A stretch of DNA of 9,746 nt, taken from the NCBI GenBank assembly GCA_000004985.1, contig GG739033.1; one strand, 5' to 3'. The translations under genes were made by a program, and so were the position numbers. Numbering within the stretch: position 1 is the stretch's first letter; every line of letters begins with the position of its first letter. Under the pieces are notes generated by a model that had not been told where the DNA came from, did not search any database, and saw only the letters and a program-made list of their open reading frames with translations. Positions 3,147 to 9,746 of this stretch are shown here, piece after piece. Origin of the DNA: Naegleria gruberi. Taxonomy: Eukaryota.

Positions 3147-5213
3147 NNNNNNNNNNNNNNNNNNNNNNNNNNNNNNNNNNNNNNNNNNNNNNNNNNNNNN
3201 NNNNNNNNNNNNNNNNNNNNNNNNNNNNNNNNNNNNNNNNNNNNNNNNNNNNNNNNNNNNNNNNNNNNNNNNNNNNNNNNNNNNNNNNNNNNNNNNNNNN
3301 NNNNNNNNNNNNNNNNNNNNNNNNNNNNNNNNNNNNNNNNNNNNNNNNNNNNNNNNNNNNNNNNNNNNNNNNNNNNNNNNNNNNNNNNNNNNNNNNNNNN
3401 NNNNNNNNNNNNNNNNNNNNNNNNNNNNNNNNNNNNNNNNNNNNNNNNNNNNNNNNNNNNNNNNNNNNNNNNNNNNNNNNNNNNNNNNNNNNNNNNNNNN
3501 NNNNNNNNNNNNNNNNNNNNNNNNNNNNNNNNNNNNNNNNNNNNNNNNNNNNNNNNNNNNNNNNNNNNNNNNNNNNNNNNNNNNNNNNNNNNNNNNNNNN
3601 NNNNNNNNNNNNNNNNNNNNNNNNNNNNNNNNNNNNNNNNNNNNNNNNNNNNNNNNNNNNNNNNNNNNNNNNNNNNNNNNNNNNNNNNNNNNNNNNNNNN
3701 NNNNNNNNNNNNNNNNNNNNNNNNNNNNNNNNNNNNNNNNNNNNNNNNNNNNNNNNNNNNNNNNNNNNNNNNNNNNNNNNNNNNNNNNNNNNNNNNNNNN
3801 NNNNNNNNNNNNNNNNNNNNNNNNNNNNNNNNNNNNNNNNNNNNNNNNNNNNNNNNNNNNNNNNNNNNNNNNNNNNNNNNNNNNNNNNNNNNNNNNNNNN
3901 NNNNNNNNNNNNNNNNNNNNNNNNNNNNNNNNNNNNNNNNNNNNNNNNNNNNNNNNNNNNNNNNNNNNNNNNNNNNNNNNNNNNNNNNNNNNNNNNNNNN
4001 NNNNNNNNNNNNNNNNNNNNNNNNNNNNNNNNNNNNNNNNNNNNNNNNNNNNNNNNNNNNNNNNNNNNNNNNNNNNNNNNNNNNNNNNNNNNNNNNNNNN
4101 NNNNNNNNNNNNNNNNNNNNNNNNNNNNNNNNNNNNNNNNNNNNNNNNNNNNNNNNNNNNNNNNNNNNNNNNNNNNNNNNNNNNNNNNNNNNNNNNNNNN
4201 NNNNNNNNNNNNNNNNNNNNNNNNNNNNNNNNNNNNNNNNNNNNNNNNNNNNNNNNNNNNNNNNNNNNNNNNNNNNNNNNNNNNNNNNNNNNNNNNNNNN
4301 NNNNNNNNNNNNNNNNNNNNNNNNNNNNNNNNNNNNNNNNNNNNNNNNNNNNNNNNNNNNNNNNNNNNNNNNNNNNNNNNNNNNNNNNNNNNNNNNNNNN
4401 NNNNNNNNNNNNNNNNNNNNNNNNNNNNNNNNNNNNNNNNNNNNNNNNNNNNNNNNNNNNNNNNNNNNNNNNNNNNNNNNNNNNNNNNNNNNNNNNNNNN
4501 NNNNNNNNNNNNNNNNNNNNNNNNNNNNNNNNNNNNNNNNNNNNNNNNNNNNNNNNNNNNNNNNNNNNNNNNNNNNNNNNNNNNNNNNNNNNNNNNNNNN
4601 NNNNNNNNNNNNNNNNNNNNNNNNNNNNNNNNNNNNNNNNNNNNNNNNNNNNNNNNNNNNNNNNNNNNNNNNNNNNNNNNNNNNNNNNNNNNNNNNNNNN
4701 NNNNNNNNNNNNNNNNNNNNNNNNNNNNNNNNNNNNNNNNNNNNNNNNNNNNNNNNNNNNNNNNNNNNNNNNNNNNNNNNNNNNNNNNNNNNNNNNNNNN
4801 NNNNNNNNNNNNNNNNNNNNNNNNNNNNNNNNNNNNNNNNNNNNNNNNNNNNNNNNNNNNNNNNNNNNNNNNNNNNNNNNNNNNNNNNNNNNNNNNNNNN
4901 NNNNNNNNNNNNNNNNNNNNNNNNNNNNNNNNNNNNNNNNNNNNNNNNNNNNNNNNNNNNNNNNNNNNNNNNNNNNNNNNNNNNNNNNNNNNNNNNNNNN
5001 NNNNNNNNNNNNNNNNNNNNNNNNNNNNNNNNNNNNNNNNNNNNNNNNNNNNNNNNNNNNNNNNNNNNNNNNNNNNNNNNNNNNNNNNNNNNNNNNNNNN
5101 NNNNNNNNNNNNNNNNNNNNNNNNNNNNNNNNNNNNNNNNNNNNNNNNNNNNNNNNNNNNNNNNNNNNNNNNNNNNNNNNNNNNNNNNNNNNNNNNNNNN
5201 NNNNNNNNNNNNN
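3147..5213. other. Assembly gap or masked region (2067 N) that swallows the 3' parts of the two convergent genes.
   Basis: Run of n characters. Confidence 1.
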
Positions 5214-5808
5214 TATCCACAACTCCTCTATCTACACCACTGTACACATCATTGATAAAACTTCCATCGTAAACTTTGATCAATTGTCCAAAAAGTTTAA
5301 AACAATTCTGAGGTGAAATGTTCATTTGAATTTCATGCTTCAAATGTGAAGCTAATGAACCTTGAATCATGTATTTTTGTGAGAAAATTAGGAGGGAGAG
5401 ACCTTCTTCATCGAGTGAGTATTCTAAACTACCAGTGTAAAAGCTTTTTACAATTTTGTAAAGTGCTGTTTCTTCGAATAAATCATCAAGGATCAGTTGA
5501 CCACATAAATTCTCTGAAAAATTGTTGGAGGAGAAGAGTGTTTGGAAGAATTCAGAATTTATGGATAGAATGCCTTTGTAAACTGAAAGAGTTTGTTGTA
5601 ATTTTGTAAGAACAATTTGAAAATCTGAAAATTGTGAATTGTCGAATAATTTTGCAGTGAAATTCGAAACATCCTGAACGTAAACTTTCTTATCTTCATA
5701 GGAACGGTTAGTTGAGGATTGAAGGAAGGCTGGAACACTAGAAACTGATGAACGAGACATTTTTTTCTTATTGAAAATTGTTTCGTTTAAGAATTTTTCT
5801 TTTATCAT
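5214..5808 (-). CDS. 3'-truncated CDS (runs into gap) whose N-terminal part is a BTB/POZ domain. The likely true start is the ATG at 5760 (MSRSSVSS...); the alternative upstream ATG at 5808 gives MIKEKFLNETIFNKKKMSRSS....
   Basis: The ORF is open from 5808 down to the gap. The segment ...SDFQIVLTKLQQTLSVYKGILSINSEFFQTLFSSNNFSENLCGQLILDDLFEETALYKIVKSFYTGSLEYSLDEEGLSLLIFSQKYMIQGSLASHLKHEI... matches the BTB/POZ consensus (D-[VF]-x-[LF]-x-V ... aHKavLaarSpyFkamF ... ieLddv...lLefiYTGel ... lLaaAdkyqi). The ATG at 5760 has the context aaaaaaaATGtct, identical to the LOG gene start at 7232. The ATG at 5808 has a poor context. Confidence 0.75.
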
Positions 5809-6053: not shown

Positions 6054-6061
6054 TTCCTTAA
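6054..6061. repeat. Left target-site duplication TTCCTTAA of the MITE.
   Basis: Identical to 6721-8. It fits the hAT target consensus nTnnnnAn, which is established knowledge for that superfamily. Confidence 0.55.
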
Positions 6062-6720
6062 TAGATCGCGGGAGGTTGATATAAATTCGTCGATCCGCTG
6101 GACCAGAAGAAAATTTGCAAGTTGAGTGTCAACTTTGAAAAATATTCAAAAAAATATTATCAGCCAAACATAACAATGCAGTGAAACTACATAGTTTTAC
6201 CCATCGAGAAAACTGGCTTTATTTTGCATAACGTGGAATAGTATCATCATTAGTACTAATTTTAGTAGAATTGATGAACAACAATATGGTGTTTGGCTAA
6301 TGCTAATACACCAACAACAACAAGAAATAATAGTAATTATATTTGCGGAAGGCTCAAGAATGAATGGTTGCTGTTACCAATATTGGCTCTGTTTTTGTTG
6401 TTGGAGTTTGGCATCAGTTCTTGATTGGATTATTGTTGGTATTCTGTTGAGTTCCCAAATTTTCACAATAAAAGACTTGTTCAATATATTTGTGTTGGTT
6501 TCCTGCATGAAATGTTACCTCATTACTCGCAGAGTATTCAAGAGAAGGAATAGAGTCAATATTGGTGTTCTATCTTTGCTTGTGAGCAAGATTACCGACT
6601 TGTAAAAATTTTCAGATACCAAGAAATTTTGGCAAAGTCGAACTGGTATCCAATGGCTGGTATTTTGGACTTGGAAAAAAAAATTTCTGGCCCATTTTTT
6701 CAAAGACTTCCCGCGATCTA
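6062..6720. mobile_element. 659-bp non-autonomous DNA transposon or MITE with terminal inverted repeats, probably hAT-like. It is flanked by an 8-bp target-site duplication.
   Basis: The left end TAGATCGCGGGAgGT (6062-6076) matches the reverse complement of the right end aCtTCCCGCGATCTA (6706-6720). The outermost 12 bp are perfect and 14 of 15 match. Extended imperfect subterminal similarity is present: left TGGACCAGAAgaaAATTTgCAAG at ~6098-6122 against the reverse complement of the right TGGGCCAGAAATTTTtttttCCAAG at ~6668-6692. Perfect direct repeats TTCCTTAA lie immediately outside both ends at 6054-6061 and 6721-6728. The interior has no credible transposase. The only ORF is 101 aa, hydrophobic, with a polyQ run. 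Confidence 0.6.
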
Positions 6721-6728
6721 TTCCTTAA
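6721..6728. repeat. Right target-site duplication TTCCTTAA of the MITE.
   Basis: Identical to 6054-6061. The inferred empty site is ...aaaTTCCTTAAtatataatttt.... Confidence 0.55.
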
Positions 6729-6939
6729 TATATAATTTTCTGTATTCTTGCATTTTCGTACCGAGTTAACTTATTGATTCACTAATTTCTTTCATAGGAC
6801 TAATAAATTTCCAAATTCTCAATACGAATTGAAAAATTGTACAAAACAATTTCACCTTCCAAATAAATACATTTTCTCACCTCCAAATATGGCCATACTC
6901 AAACATTATCGAAATTCACAACAATTGCTCAGCCATTCT

Positions 6940-7231
6940 CCAAACCGACAAGATTATTCAAACACCTACCCATTCATCATCCATTCCTCAACTTTCCTTC
7001 ATCCAATTCCTCTTGCTCATCATTTCCGAACCTCGCCATTCATCATGCAACATCACCTCATCACCATTTTTGAACCAATCAAAATGCAACCCTCAACAAC
7101 AATATTTCCATTCTCACAATGCAACATCACTTCCCAAACAGCCCATTCTCACAATTCACAAGCAAAATGCATTTTCAGAATCTGCATTGTCGTTGTTGAA
7201 TCAAATACACAACAACAACGCATAGAAAAAA
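6940..7231 (+). promoter_or_regulatory. G-depleted, CA/CT-rich leader immediately upstream of the LOG start codon. A putative 5' UTR or core-promoter region.
   Basis: Positions 6961-7140 contain only about 7 G in 180 nt on the plus strand and about 30% C. This is strong strand asymmetry. The ORFs called here (6829-7239, 7013-7225) have His/Pro/Ser/Thr/Ile/Phe-dominated composition with almost no Gly, Asp or Glu, as expected from the base skew rather than from coding. Confidence 0.35.
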
Positions 7232-7439
7232 ATGTCTAGCCAACCAACCAATTCAACATGCTCTTCTGATTGTTCTGCTTCAACTGTTGCTGCAGAAAAG
7301 CCAAAACTTTCCTTTGTTGTTTATTGTGCTTCGAGTAGTAAATTGGATGAAAAGTATTTTAGTGCTGCAACACAAGTTGGTGAGACTTGTGCTCAGAATG
7401 GAATTGGAGTGAGATATGGAGGTGGTAATTGTGGTTTGA
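7232..7439 (+). CDS. LOG: LOG-family protein (cytokinin riboside 5'-monophosphate phosphoribohydrolase / 'lysine decarboxylase-like', Pfam Lysine_decarbox type), exon 1. Translation: MSSQPTNSTCSSDCSASTVAAEKPKLSFVVYCASSSKLDEKYFSAATQVGETCAQNGIGVRYGGGNCGL, ending on a split codon.
   Basis: KLSFVVYCASSSKLDEKYFSAATQVGETCAQNGIGVRYGGGNCGL aligns with the LOG N-terminal signature (plant LOG1 [45 protein letters not shown]). The start context is gaaaaaaATGtct. The exon ends at 7439 in phase 1, directly before the GTAAGT donor at 7440-7445. Confidence 0.8.
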
Positions 7440-7577
7440 GTAAGTATTTATTATGAGAATGCAACTTTTAATTATTCTATTTAATGTTCAATATATTTAA
7501 TACAATTTAATAATAATATTGAAAAATATTTAATATACGTCTGATGATGAAATAAATTATCGGAATGCATACAATAG
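7440..7577 (+). other. Spliceosomal intron of the LOG gene: 138 bp, GTAAGT...acaatAG, about 80% AT.
   Basis: A canonical GTAAGT donor follows the exon 1 end. An AG acceptor sits at 7576-7577 after an AT-rich tract. Splicing 7439|7578 joins a+tg into an ATG (Met) codon. This recreates the conserved LOG motif GGGxxGLMG and keeps the downstream frame TVAKSCMDK open. Confidence 0.65.
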
Positions 7578-7609
7578 TGNGTACTGTTGCCAAATCATGC
7601 ATGGATAAG
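7578..7609 (+). CDS. LOG: LOG-family gene exon 2 (start only): (M)-x-TVAKSCMDK... It continues into the gap at 7610-8337; the 3' end is not determinable.
   Basis: The frame after splicing gives GL-M-[ngt: Gly if n=g]-TVAKSCMDK. This matches the LOG consensus GLMGxVAxxvxxxGG. The same frame is the one called as ORF 7565-8371 in the track. Confidence 0.6.
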
Positions 7610-8337
7610 NNNNNNNNNNNNNNNNNNNNNNNNNNNNNNNNNNNNNNNNNNNNNNNNNNNNNNNNNNNNNNNNNNNNNNNNNNNNNNNNNNNNNNNNNNN
7701 NNNNNNNNNNNNNNNNNNNNNNNNNNNNNNNNNNNNNNNNNNNNNNNNNNNNNNNNNNNNNNNNNNNNNNNNNNNNNNNNNNNNNNNNNNNNNNNNNNNN
7801 NNNNNNNNNNNNNNNNNNNNNNNNNNNNNNNNNNNNNNNNNNNNNNNNNNNNNNNNNNNNNNNNNNNNNNNNNNNNNNNNNNNNNNNNNNNNNNNNNNNN
7901 NNNNNNNNNNNNNNNNNNNNNNNNNNNNNNNNNNNNNNNNNNNNNNNNNNNNNNNNNNNNNNNNNNNNNNNNNNNNNNNNNNNNNNNNNNNNNNNNNNNN
8001 NNNNNNNNNNNNNNNNNNNNNNNNNNNNNNNNNNNNNNNNNNNNNNNNNNNNNNNNNNNNNNNNNNNNNNNNNNNNNNNNNNNNNNNNNNNNNNNNNNNN
8101 NNNNNNNNNNNNNNNNNNNNNNNNNNNNNNNNNNNNNNNNNNNNNNNNNNNNNNNNNNNNNNNNNNNNNNNNNNNNNNNNNNNNNNNNNNNNNNNNNNNN
8201 NNNNNNNNNNNNNNNNNNNNNNNNNNNNNNNNNNNNNNNNNNNNNNNNNNNNNNNNNNNNNNNNNNNNNNNNNNNNNNNNNNNNNNNNNNNNNNNNNNNN
8301 NNNNNNNNNNNNNNNNNNNNNNNNNNNNNNNNNNNNN
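7610..8337. other. Assembly gap or masked region (728 N), plus a single n at 7580.
   Basis: Run of n characters. Confidence 1.
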
Positions 8338-8501
8338 TACAAAAAGTAAAAACAATAAAAAAGTTAAATGACATGATTAATAATTCAATATGACAATGCT
8401 CGATCTGTATTTTGACATTGAAAATTTCTATGACATTTGTCACATTAAAAAAATCAAAAAATGATTAGAGTGATATCCTACTTTTTTATGTTGTTGTGTA
8501 G

Positions 8502-8577
8502 TCGGAATGTTTTTGAATATACGAAGTGTAATTGGATATTCGGAATGTTTTTGAATATGCGAGATGTTGCTGTGTGT
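8502..8577. repeat. Two tandem ~38-bp units of a short repeat family (TCGGAATGTTTTTGAATAT[A/G]CGA[A/G]...). It lies in a larger degenerate repeat block of about 8460-8600.
   Basis: The 19-bp perfect repeat TCGGAATGTTTTTGAATAT occurs at 8502-8520 and 8540-8558. The full 38-bp units are about 76% identical. Flanking motifs GATTAGAGTGAT (8463) and GATTAGAATGAT (8581), and TGTTGTTGTGT / TGTTGCTGTGT, are also repeated. Confidence 0.7.
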
Positions 8578-8685
8578 TCAGATTAGAATGATGTTATTTT
8601 TTTTTAAATTGGTGGTTTATTCTAAACTATTTGTGTATCCATGCGAAATCTTTGTACTCCTTATTTAACGGTATTTTTTAAGTAA

Positions 8686-8740
8686 TGGAGCCTGTGACTT
8701 TAAAGAGATCCAATTAATGTAATAAAGAGCTGATTTTTCC
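8686..8740. repeat. Dispersed ~50-bp homologous segment (copy A): GGAGCCTGTGACTTTAAAGAGATCCAATTAATGTAATAAAGAGCT.
   Basis: It aligns with 9066-9120 (GGAGCCCATGCTTTTAAAGTCATCCAAAAAATGATTAAAAGCT) at about 75-80% identity. Both lie in an ORF-free AT-rich region. Confidence 0.5.
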
Positions 8741-9065
8741 TGATCAACATATTTGCGTTAATTGGCTTCATAATCTATCTGATTGATTCATAAAAACCTC
8801 AATTTAAATAACTAATGGACAATGAATTAAAGAGTGAAAAAACCCCGCCAAAAAAATAACATAAAAAACTGGGATCGAGAAGCTCAGTTTACATCATCGT
8901 AATGAGAGCATGGTATAGGTTAATATTTCACAGATATAATCAAATATATGTAATAAAAACATTATGAAACATTCACATATTGAAACATTATAGTAAAAAG
9001 AGCGGAACCTTATCTATTATTTAGGTCAAGTTTCTTTTTCTTTTTCTAGGCAAATTTGTTAAACT

Positions 9066-9120
9066 CGGAGCCCATGCTTTTAAAGTCATCCAAAAAATGA
9101 TTAAAAGCTTTGAAGATCAC
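9066..9120. repeat. Dispersed ~50-bp homologous segment (copy B).
   Basis: See copy A at 8686-8740. Confidence 0.5.
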
Positions 9121-9704
9121 ACAATTCATAAAATGTTTAGTATTGCTCCATATTACAGAATTTCTAACAATGAAAATGGTCTGGTTATGAAATAATGCTG
9201 TTCTATTAAAAGAATGAAATATTACCTGGAAAAAATAAGTATTAAAAAAAATTCATTCAAGCGCTGATTTCTATCTCCACAACAAAAAGGACTGAATCTG
9301 TGATTATTTCATGGTATATTGAAATCACTGTTTACATATATTAATTAAAGTCTCATGTGGTGAGGTGTCGTAAAACAAAAATTAAAGACCGAGTCCAACA
9401 AACACATAATTTTTGAATCAATTTTTGACTTATTAAAAACTTTGACTTATGTTTTCTAAGGTTCCTAATAACATAAACCAGTTATTTCATGCTACCATCG
9501 TTGTAGGTAAAGAAAAAGGTGTTGACTATTGGGGAAATCTGAATAGACGTTCATTCAGAAGCTTTTAGCATTCATTTATTATCTTTGTTCCATCATTCAG
9601 AATCTTTATTCAGGCCATTGGTTTCATGCAAAATACATTCTGAATTTCAGAATCTTTTCTTCCATTCTAAAGTCTTGTTTTTCGTTTAAAATGGAGTGCG
9701 CACA

Positions 9705-9746
9705 TTTATTATGCTGTTGAATATGCGAAATGTTGCTGAATATTCG
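9705..9746. repeat. Another copy of the same ~38-bp repeat family, running off the window end.
   Basis: TTGAATATGCGAAATGTTGCTG (9717-9738) matches 8552-8573 (TTGAATATGCGAGATGTTGCTG) at 21 of 22 positions. The following AATATTCG matches the unit junction ATATTCGgaatg. Confidence 0.65.

What the first reader, a model, noticed from the sequence alone, without database searches (positions are those of the whole stretch)
6054..6728. Intact-looking 659-bp MITE (hAT-like) with perfect 12-bp TIRs and 8-bp TSD, inserted between the BTB gene and the LOG gene
The termini TAGATCGCGGGA are perfectly inverted (6062-6073 and 6709-6720). The similarity extends weakly for about 60 bp inward: TGGaCCAGAA..ATTT..CAAG on the left against the reverse complement of TGGgCCAGAAATTTT..CCAAG on the right. 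The element is bracketed by a perfect direct repeat TTCCTTAA. An 8-bp TSD fitting nTnnnnAn and a TIR starting T-A-G (YARNG-like at 4 of 5 positions) are the established hallmarks of hAT elements. A perfect TSD and perfect terminal 12-mers suggest a recent, possibly still mobilisable insertion. The element lacks any transposase ORF, so an autonomous partner with the same TIRs should exist elsewhere in the genome. It sits about 250 bp upstream of the BTB gene ATG and about 500 bp upstream of the LOG ATG. Its right TSD overlaps a TATATAA-like sequence, so it may affect or donate promoter elements.
Basis: partly seen in the sequence, partly recalled or inferred. Interest (0 to 1): 0.6.

Follow-up and report, generated by a model that had tools for sequence, protein, structure and literature searches.

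The report
Small transposon insertion in Naegleria intergenic DNA
A 659-bp non-coding stretch between two Naegleria gruberi genes has the end structure of a cut-and-paste DNA transposon insertion, probably of the hAT type; this is an ordinary kind of feature, and no second copy or partner transposase could be looked for here.

Summary
TAGATCGCGGGA at 6062-6073 is perfectly inverted at 6709-6720 (14 of 15 positions when extended). TTCCTTAA directly flanks both ends (6054-6061, 6721-6728). Neither motif occurs elsewhere in the window. None of 2000 dinucleotide shuffles gave a 12-bp inverted repeat flanked by a direct repeat of 7 bp or more.

The claimed 60-bp subterminal similarity is not significant. 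The 659-bp interior has no Pfam hit, no homologue among 1.84 billion representative proteins, and no Rfam hit.

The window is Naegleria gruberi: its LOG N-terminus is 100% identical to the N. gruberi protein. The element lies between divergent BTB and LOG genes.

The best reading is one insertion of a non-autonomous terminal-inverted-repeat transposon. An 8-bp duplication fitting nTnnnnAn and a short TIR favour hAT (Ac-type target). The TIR lacks the G at position 5, and the boundary is ambiguous: 8, 6 or 4 bp duplications fit equally symmetrically.

"MITE" and "hAT" remain unproven. Scans of public collections returned only chance bacterial hits.

This is a new member of a known kind, of low interest.

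The parts
6054..6061 (.). Left target-site duplication, TTCCTTAA
   Evidence: One of only two occurrences in the window. It directly abuts the left TIR.
6062..6076 (+). Left terminal inverted repeat, TAGATCGCGGGAgGT (12 perfect, 14/15)
   Evidence: (pair I3).
6062..6720 (.). Whole element: 659 bp, 34.6% G+C, non-coding
   Evidence: No Pfam hit in any frame. The 101-aa internal ORF has no homologue among 1.84 billion representative proteins. No Rfam match. No second copy in the window.
6706..6720 (-). Right terminal inverted repeat, ACtTCCCGCGATCTA on the + strand
   Evidence: (pair I3).
6721..6728 (.). Right target-site duplication, TTCCTTAA, followed by TATATAA at 6729-6735
5214..5760 (-). 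Flanking gene: 5' part of a BTB/POZ-domain gene. The likely ATG is at 5760-5758, with an alternative in-frame ATG at 5808. The rest of the gene is masked.
   Evidence: Pfam PF00651, E = 1.1e-9; ORF table.
7232..7439 (+). Flanking gene: LOG-family exon 1. The intron is 7440-7577 and exon 2 starts at 7578.
   Evidence: The spliced 80 aa are 100% identical to the N. gruberi 'lysine decarboxylase' P0002, which carries PF03641 and PF18306. The intron sits at the same position in L121.

Best explanation
Positions 6062-6720 are one insertion of a non-autonomous class II (cut-and-paste) transposon in the intergenic region between the divergent BTB and LOG genes of Naegleria gruberi.

Inferred mechanism: a transposase encoded elsewhere bound the short terminal inverted repeats and excised the element. 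It then joined the element's 3' ends to a staggered cut 8 bp apart at the target aaatTTCCTTAAtata. Gap repair duplicated TTCCTTAA on both sides.

The 8-bp duplication with T at position 2 and A at position 7, together with the 12-15-bp TIR, points to the hAT superfamily with an Ac-type target preference.

The element carries no gene. It leaves about 300 bp of native upstream DNA for BTB and about 510 bp for LOG, so it is probably neutral for both.

Shown: the TIR and TSD structure, the absence of coding or known-RNA content, the host species and the flanking genes. Inferred: the transposition mechanism, the superfamily, the neutrality and the age.
For: - Perfect 12-bp TIR (14/15 when extended) and perfect 8-bp flanking duplication, each unique in the window.
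- 0 of 2000 shuffled windows reproduce a 12-bp inverted repeat with a direct repeat of 7 bp or more.
- Genome-wide chance expectation is 4.5e-4 for arms this G+C-rich.
- No coding capacity and no Rfam family.
- TTCCTTAA fits nTnnnnAn, the target pattern of Hermes and other Ac-type hAT elements (PMC10368747, PMC2803484, PMC3517528).
- Size, TIR length and TSD length match Mar (610 bp, 11-bp TIR, 8-bp TSD) and Vege (884 bp, 12-bp TIR, 8-bp TSD). Both were first assigned to hAT on these criteria alone, and Mar was later confirmed (PMC3517528).
- The BTB-LOG spacer is 1471 bp. Intergenic gaps in the N. lovaniensis LOG locus are 69-472 bp, which is weakly consistent with inserted DNA.
Against: - Only one copy was seen, with no family, autonomous partner or empty site.
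- The TIR starts TAGAT, so it lacks the G at position 5 of the hAT YARNG motif (motif recalled from established knowledge).
- No significant subterminal similarity or subterminal repeats were found, although hAT ends normally need them (PMC10368747).
- The duplication length is ambiguous (8, 6 or 4 bp) because TT..AA is self-complementary.
- No published record of hAT in Naegleria was found. Reported N. gruberi transposons are Harbinger and MuDRF (PMC3164196), and TE content is reported as only 0.28% (bioRxiv 10.64898/2026.06.24.734286).
- Without the post-hoc G+C criterion, about one such structure per 41-Mb genome is expected by chance.
Confidence: 0.75

Rival explanations
1. It is a non-autonomous TIR transposon of a different superfamily that makes 8-bp or near-8-bp duplications. 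Candidates are Mutator/MuDRF (present in N. gruberi), P and Merlin. Under the alternative boundaries (TSD 6 TCCTTA or TSD 4 CCTT), a superfamily making 4-6-bp duplications would also fit.
For: A full-length MuDRF element is reported in N. gruberi (PMC3164196), while no hAT record for Naegleria was found. The TIR lacks the hAT G at position 5. The boundary ambiguity is shown.
Against: MuDRF elements have 9-bp duplications (PMC3164196). A 9- or 10-bp reading here makes the two ends asymmetric by 1-2 nt. Mutator TIRs are usually much longer (established knowledge). The TSD fits the hAT Ac-type pattern at both diagnostic positions. The 4- and 6-bp readings require the element termini to match the target flanks by coincidence.
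Confidence: 0.15
2. It is a chance coincidence. The region is native intergenic DNA in which a 12-bp inverted repeat happens to be flanked by an 8-bp direct repeat, with no transposition involved.
For: Only one copy is known. There is no compositional break: the element is 34.6% G+C and its flanks are 31-33%. The i.i.d. expectation is about 1.1 such structures per 41-Mb genome when arm composition is ignored. Real sequence holds more inverted repeats than shuffles do: 42 against 19.5 10-mers.
Against: 0 of 2000 shuffled windows reproduce the structure. The arms are G+C-rich with two CpGs in a 32% G+C genome, which lowers the genome-wide expectation to 4.5e-4. The repeat extends to 14/15. The direct repeat abuts the arms exactly on both sides.
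Confidence: 0.07
3. It is a Tc1/mariner-type (Stowaway-like) element, GATCGCGGGA...TCCCGCGATC, with the canonical TA duplication, inserted into a pre-existing tandem repeat (TTCCTTAATA)x2.
For: TA flanks the GATC...GATC core on both sides. The direct repeat is in fact 10 bp, TTCCTTAATA (family D7).
Against: This reading requires a perfect 10-bp tandem duplication at the target and insertion exactly at its first TA. That is far less parsimonious than a single 8-bp duplication. TTCCTTAA occurs nowhere else in the window.
Confidence: 0.03

Closest known systems
Mar and Vege MITEs of Drosophila willistoni (hAT superfamily; PMC3517528)
   Same: They are short AT-rich non-coding elements (610 and 884 bp) with 11-12-bp TIRs and 8-bp target-site duplications. 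Both were first assigned to hAT from TIR and TSD length alone.
   Different: Mar has about 90 copies, relic full-length copies with a Buster-type transposase, a CAG(G/A)G TIR start and an nnnTAnnn target. The Naegleria element is known from one copy, starts TAGAT, and has a target fitting the Ac-type nTnnnnAn and not the Buster pattern.
Hermes/hobo/Ac autonomous hAT transposons (PMC10368747, PMC2803484)
   Same: They make 8-bp duplications with the nTnnnnAn preference, have short TIRs (17 bp in Hermes), and move by cut-and-paste through a staggered 8-bp target cut.
   Different: They are about 3-4.5 kb and encode a BED-DDE transposase. They begin with CAG(A/G)G and carry many subterminal repeats, such as AAGT/AAGC in Hermes. 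None of these could be shown here.
MuDRF (Mutator superfamily) and Harbinger elements reported from N. gruberi (PMC3164196)
   Same: They are class II TIR transposons documented in the same species.
   Different: MuDRF makes 9-bp duplications. Harbinger makes 3-bp duplications (TWA, from established knowledge). Neither fits the symmetric 8-bp duplication here.

Membership tests
hAT superfamily | 8-bp target-site duplication | tested here: met
   TTCCTTAA is on both sides and directly abuts the TIRs. Caveat: 6- and 4-bp readings are equally symmetric.
hAT superfamily | Target consensus nTnnnnAn (Ac family) or nnnTAnnn (Buster family) | tested here: met
   There is T at position 2 and A at position 7, so the Ac pattern is met. 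Positions 4-5 are CT, so the Buster pattern is not met (PMC3517528, PMC10368747). The support is weak, because about 11% of random 8-mers in this AT-rich DNA fit the Ac pattern (base frequencies).
hAT superfamily | Short TIRs (5-27 bp) and total length under 4 kb | tested here: met
   12 bp perfect, 14/15 extended; 659 bp in total (criterion from PMC3517528).
hAT superfamily | TIR 5' motif YARNG (A at position 2, G at position 5) | tested here: not met
   The TIR starts TAGAT, so positions 1-4 fit and position 5 is T, not G. The motif is recalled from established knowledge and was not checked against a database.
hAT superfamily | Subterminal short repeats that bind the transposase | tested here: inconclusive
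   No k-mer is significantly enriched at the ends; CTGG/CCAG occurs 5 of 6 times in the terminal 150 bp (P = 0.07), before any correction for multiple testing. The ends do not align beyond the TIR.
hAT superfamily | Autonomous partner with the same TIRs encoding a BED/DDE/hAT-dimerisation transposase | not testable with these tools
MITE (as a class) | Small size, TIRs, TSD and no coding capacity | tested here: met
MITE (as a class) | Multi-copy family of near-identical elements with different TSDs | not testable with these tools
   There is one copy in the window. There is none in the N. lovaniensis locus L122 or in L121. Collection scans gave only chance bacterial hits, and those collections do not hold the host genome.
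Mutator / MuDRF | 9-bp (8-11 bp) TSD with symmetric ends | tested here: not met
   Reading 9 or 10 bp as the TSD shifts the left end by 1-2 nt relative to the right end. MuDRF has a 9-bp TSD (PMC3164196).
PIF/Harbinger | 3-bp TSD (TWA) | tested here: not met
   The flanks are TAA on the left and TTC on the right of the TIRs.
Tc1/mariner (Stowaway-like) | TA duplication flanking the TIRs | tested here: inconclusive
   TA flanks a GATC...GATC core, but the additional 8-bp repeat would then need a pre-existing 10-bp tandem duplication.

The most novel reading that the evidence does not exclude
The element belongs to a recently or currently active hAT-like MITE family in Naegleria gruberi, with a live autonomous partner. 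That would be the first hAT record for Heterolobosea in the literature searched here, in a genome reported as almost free of transposons (0.28%). It would also be a candidate endogenous cut-and-paste vector for an organism that is hard to transform (the last point is from my own knowledge, not checked here).
Probability: 0.12. Interest if true: 0.45.

Novelty: new member of a known kind. Interest (0 to 1): 0.2.

Why it matters
If confirmed, this adds one small DNA-transposon family to the sparse transposon catalogue of Naegleria gruberi and gives a marker for strain or haplotype polymorphism at the BTB-LOG spacer. Its termini would be a handle for finding the autonomous element. An active partner could be useful as a genetic tool. 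The insertion sits in a shared upstream region but leaves about 300 and 510 bp of native promoter-side DNA, so a regulatory effect is possible but not indicated. As it stands, this is a routine annotation item.

Tried and rejected
- Metagenome scan with TAGATCGCGGGARGT: 120 loci, each with a single hit and a median G+C of 0.57. None extends beyond about 19-27 nt, so all are chance hits.
- Gapped pattern (TIR plus GGNCCAGAA) in genome contigs and viral contigs: 14 loci, 13 of them with 50-68% G+C and one viral contig at 41%. None has further similarity to the element.
- Exact look-ups of window ORFs to fetch the same locus from other assemblies, and of the N. gruberi LOG protein: nothing on record, so no empty-site test was possible.
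- N. lovaniensis LOG locus L122: only LOG exon 1 is shared and there is no BTB neighbour, so it is not an orthologous spacer.
- L121, a metagenomic Naegleria relative: only 37 bp lie upstream of LOG.
- BTB N-terminus against 5.8 billion proteins: no hit.
- The 101-aa internal ORF against 1.84 billion representatives: no hit.
- Six-frame pieces against Pfam: no hit. Rfam at E up to 1: no hit.
- Subterminal alignment and k-mer enrichment: not significant.
- Single-strand DNA fold: z = -3.2 on only 20 shuffles, with the ends pairing through the TIR. This adds nothing beyond the TIR.
- Literature search for the TIR string: only unrelated primers.
- Literature search for hAT in Naegleria: nothing found.
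- The N. gruberi genome paper is not held.

Full report
**What is in the sequence**

The window is 9746 bases, of which 4005 are masked as N (1010-2208, 3148-5213, 7580, 7610-8337). At the reported coordinates the 12-mer TAGATCGCGGGA lies at 6062-6073. Its exact reverse complement lies at 6709-6720. These are the only two matches in the window even when two mismatches are allowed.

Extended inward, the repeat reads TAGATCGCGGGA[G/A]GT, 14 of 15 positions (pair I3). TTCCTTAA lies directly outside both arms (6054-6061 and 6721-6728) and occurs nowhere else in the window. The enclosed element is 659 bp.

**Is it more than chance?**

- Among 2000 dinucleotide-preserving shuffles of the unmasked segments, none had a perfect 12-bp inverted repeat (50-3000 bp apart) flanked by a direct repeat of 7 bp or more. 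One had a 6-bp direct repeat.
- With 10-bp arms, 3 of 2000 shuffles reached an 8-bp duplication.
- An i.i.d. calculation with the window's base frequencies gives about 1.1 such structures per 41-Mb genome when arm composition is ignored. It gives only 4.5e-4 for arms with at least 8 of 12 G/C, as here.
- The other perfect 12-bp inverted repeats in the window are A/T runs or CAA repeats.

Chance is therefore unlikely. It is not formally excluded if the first stage scanned a whole genome and the G+C criterion is regarded as post hoc.

**Corrections to the observation**

- Subterminal similarity. The suggested weak similarity running about 60 bp inward is not significant: the best local alignment of the two subterminal 108-nt stretches is matched or beaten by 133 of 1000 shuffles. 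No short motif is convincingly enriched at the ends; CTGG/CCAG occurs 5 of 6 times in the terminal 150 bp, P = 0.07 uncorrected.
- Direct repeat length. The repeat is perfect over 10 bp (TTCCTTAATA), because the first two TIR bases recur after the right repeat (family D7).
- Boundary ambiguity. TTCCTTAA ends in mutually complementary TT..AA. Three boundary choices are therefore equally symmetric: TSD 8 + TIR 12, TSD 6 (TCCTTA) + TIR 13, and TSD 4 (CCTT) + TIR 14. All three predict the same empty site, aaatTTCCTTAAtata. The 8-bp reading is the most parsimonious, because the shorter readings need the element's terminal bases to match the target flanks by coincidence. One copy cannot settle the matter.
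- TA reading. A Tc1/mariner-style reading would need a pre-existing perfect 10-bp tandem duplication at the target.

**Host and neighbours**

The spliced N-terminus of the + strand gene is 100% identical over 80 residues to the protein named lysine decarboxylase [Naegleria gruberi] (P0002; PF03641 and PF18306, the LOG family). The gene structure is:

- exon 1: 7232-7439
- intron: 7440-7577
- exon 2: from 7578

It is 62% identical to the N. lovaniensis orthologue. So the window is N. gruberi and the LOG call is right.

The minus-strand gene carries a BTB/POZ domain (E = 1.1e-9). Its likely start is at 5760, because that ATG sits in the context AGAAAAAAATGTCT, which is identical to the LOG start context. 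This puts the element 301 bp upstream of BTB, or 253 bp from an upstream in-frame ATG at 5808, and 511 bp upstream of LOG.

The BTB-LOG spacer is 1471 bp. The twelve intergenic gaps in the 21-kb N. lovaniensis LOG locus range from 69 to 472 bp. This is weakly consistent with extra inserted DNA.

**Content of the element**

- G+C is 34.6%, like its surroundings.
- All six frames are broken by stops.
- The longest ORF (101 aa) and nine other frame pieces have no Pfam match at E up to 1.
- The 101-aa ORF has no homologue at E up to 0.001 among 1.84 billion representative proteins.
- No Rfam family matches anywhere in the window at E up to 1.

The element is therefore non-coding, as claimed.

**Search for relatives**

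There is no second copy or fragment in the window, in the N. lovaniensis locus L122, or in the metagenomic Naegleria contig L121.

| Scan | Pattern | Result |
|---|---|---|
| Public metagenome contigs | TAGATCGCGGGARGT | 120 loci, one hit each, median G+C 0.57; similarity ends after about 19-27 nt |
| Prokaryotic genome and viral collections | TIR plus GGNCCAGAA, gapped | 14 loci, 13 of them with 50-68% G+C; no further similarity |

All of these are chance hits, and the collections do not contain the N. gruberi genome.

Attempts to fetch the same locus from other assemblies by exact protein look-up failed. The N. lovaniensis locus shares only LOG exon 1 with the window. L121 has only 37 bp upstream of LOG.

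**Interpretation**

The architecture is that of a non-autonomous cut-and-paste transposon insertion. A transposase supplied in trans recognises the TIRs, excises the element and integrates it across a staggered cut. Repair of the cut yields the flanking duplication.

An 8-bp duplication with T at position 2 and A at position 7 matches the target preference nTnnnnAn of Hermes and other Ac-type hAT elements (PMC10368747, PMC2803484). It does not match the Buster-type nnnTAnnn (PMC3517528). About 11% of random 8-mers in this AT-rich DNA would fit nTnnnnAn, so this is weak support.

hAT elements have 8-bp duplications, TIRs of 5-27 bp and lengths under 4 kb (PMC3517528), and all three are met. The closest described analogues are the Drosophila willistoni MITEs:

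- Mar: 610 bp, 11-bp TIR, 8-bp TSD
- Vege: 884 bp, 12-bp TIR, 8-bp TSD

Both were first assigned to hAT on exactly these criteria, and Mar was later confirmed through relic transposase copies (PMC3517528).

Points against hAT membership:

- The TIR starts TAGAT and lacks the G at position 5 of the YARNG motif (motif from established knowledge).
- No subterminal repeats were detectable, although hAT ends normally depend on them (PMC10368747).
- I found no published hAT record for Naegleria.
- Harbinger and a full-length MuDRF element with 9-bp duplications are reported from N. gruberi (PMC3164196).

A 9- or 10-bp reading here makes the ends asymmetric, and a 3-bp TWA duplication is absent. Those two families therefore fit worse than hAT.

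**Age and effect**

Twenty perfectly matching pairs (40 bases) only bound per-site divergence since insertion to roughly below 7% at the 5% level. The probability of no change is 0.13 at 5% divergence and 0.015 at 10%. "Recent" is therefore plausible but loosely constrained.

The right duplication is followed by TATATAA (6729-6735). This is native flank sequence, not sequence donated by the element. Both genes keep several hundred bp of native upstream DNA, more than the typical spacer in the sister species. A neutral insertion is the default expectation; this is an inference.

**Novelty**

A short TIR/TSD element in a protist intergenic region is a known kind of feature. A recent preprint reports only 0.28% transposon content for N. 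gruberi (bioRxiv 10.64898/2026.06.24.734286). A structurally intact DNA-transposon relic is therefore mildly notable for this genome, and possibly an unrecorded family. I could not check Repbase.

My verdict is a new member of a known kind, of low interest, with the hAT and MITE labels provisional.

Noticed in passing
window 5755-5768 and 7224-7237: The two divergent genes (BTB and LOG) have an identical 14-nt start context, AGAAAAAAATGTCT, which forms a perfect 14-bp inverted repeat 1.47 kb apart. It may reflect a Naegleria start-site consensus. It supports the ATG at 5760 as the BTB start.
   Followed up: partly
window 8488-8579 and 9711-9745: There is a degenerate 19-bp tandem repeat (TCGGAATGTTTTTGAATAT, about 3-5 units). 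A related 28-35-nt copy (83-89% identical) lies in direct orientation at the very end of the window, 1166 bp away. The whole stretch 8338-9746 has no ORF longer than 41 aa and is 28.7% G+C. That is unusually long non-coding DNA for this compact genome and may be another repeat family.
   Followed up: partly
window 6750-7230: The stretch upstream of the LOG ATG is strongly strand-asymmetric, with C far exceeding G (GC skew about -0.6). It holds a 116/136-aa ORF (6889 or 6829 to 7239) that ends just after the LOG start. No gene with this product is on record. It may be a 5' UTR or upstream ORF, or non-coding.
   Followed up: partly
window 5214-5760 (- strand): The 182-aa N-terminal part of the BTB protein found no homologue at E up to 0.001 among 5.8 billion proteins, although the N. 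gruberi LOG protein is in that database. Either the gene is not annotated in this form, or it is a fast-evolving lineage-specific BTB gene.
   Followed up: no
L121 (ENA ERZ27254845, contig k141_1639959), 1-1076: An environmental metagenome contig carries the LOG gene of a different Naegleria species. Its spliced protein is 84% identical to the N. gruberi protein, and the first intron is at the same position.
   Followed up: partly
window 9551-9611: A degenerate 21-bp tandem repeat (TCATTCAGAATCTTTATTCCA, 2.9 copies) lies in the non-coding region downstream of LOG.
   Followed up: no
window 6376-6393 / 6549-6566 and 6308-6323 / 6392-6407: There are internal inverted repeats inside the element (18 nt at 89% and 16 nt at 88% complementarity). 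They contribute to a single-strand fold somewhat more stable than shuffles (z = -3.2 on 20 shuffles). Their significance is unknown.
   Followed up: no
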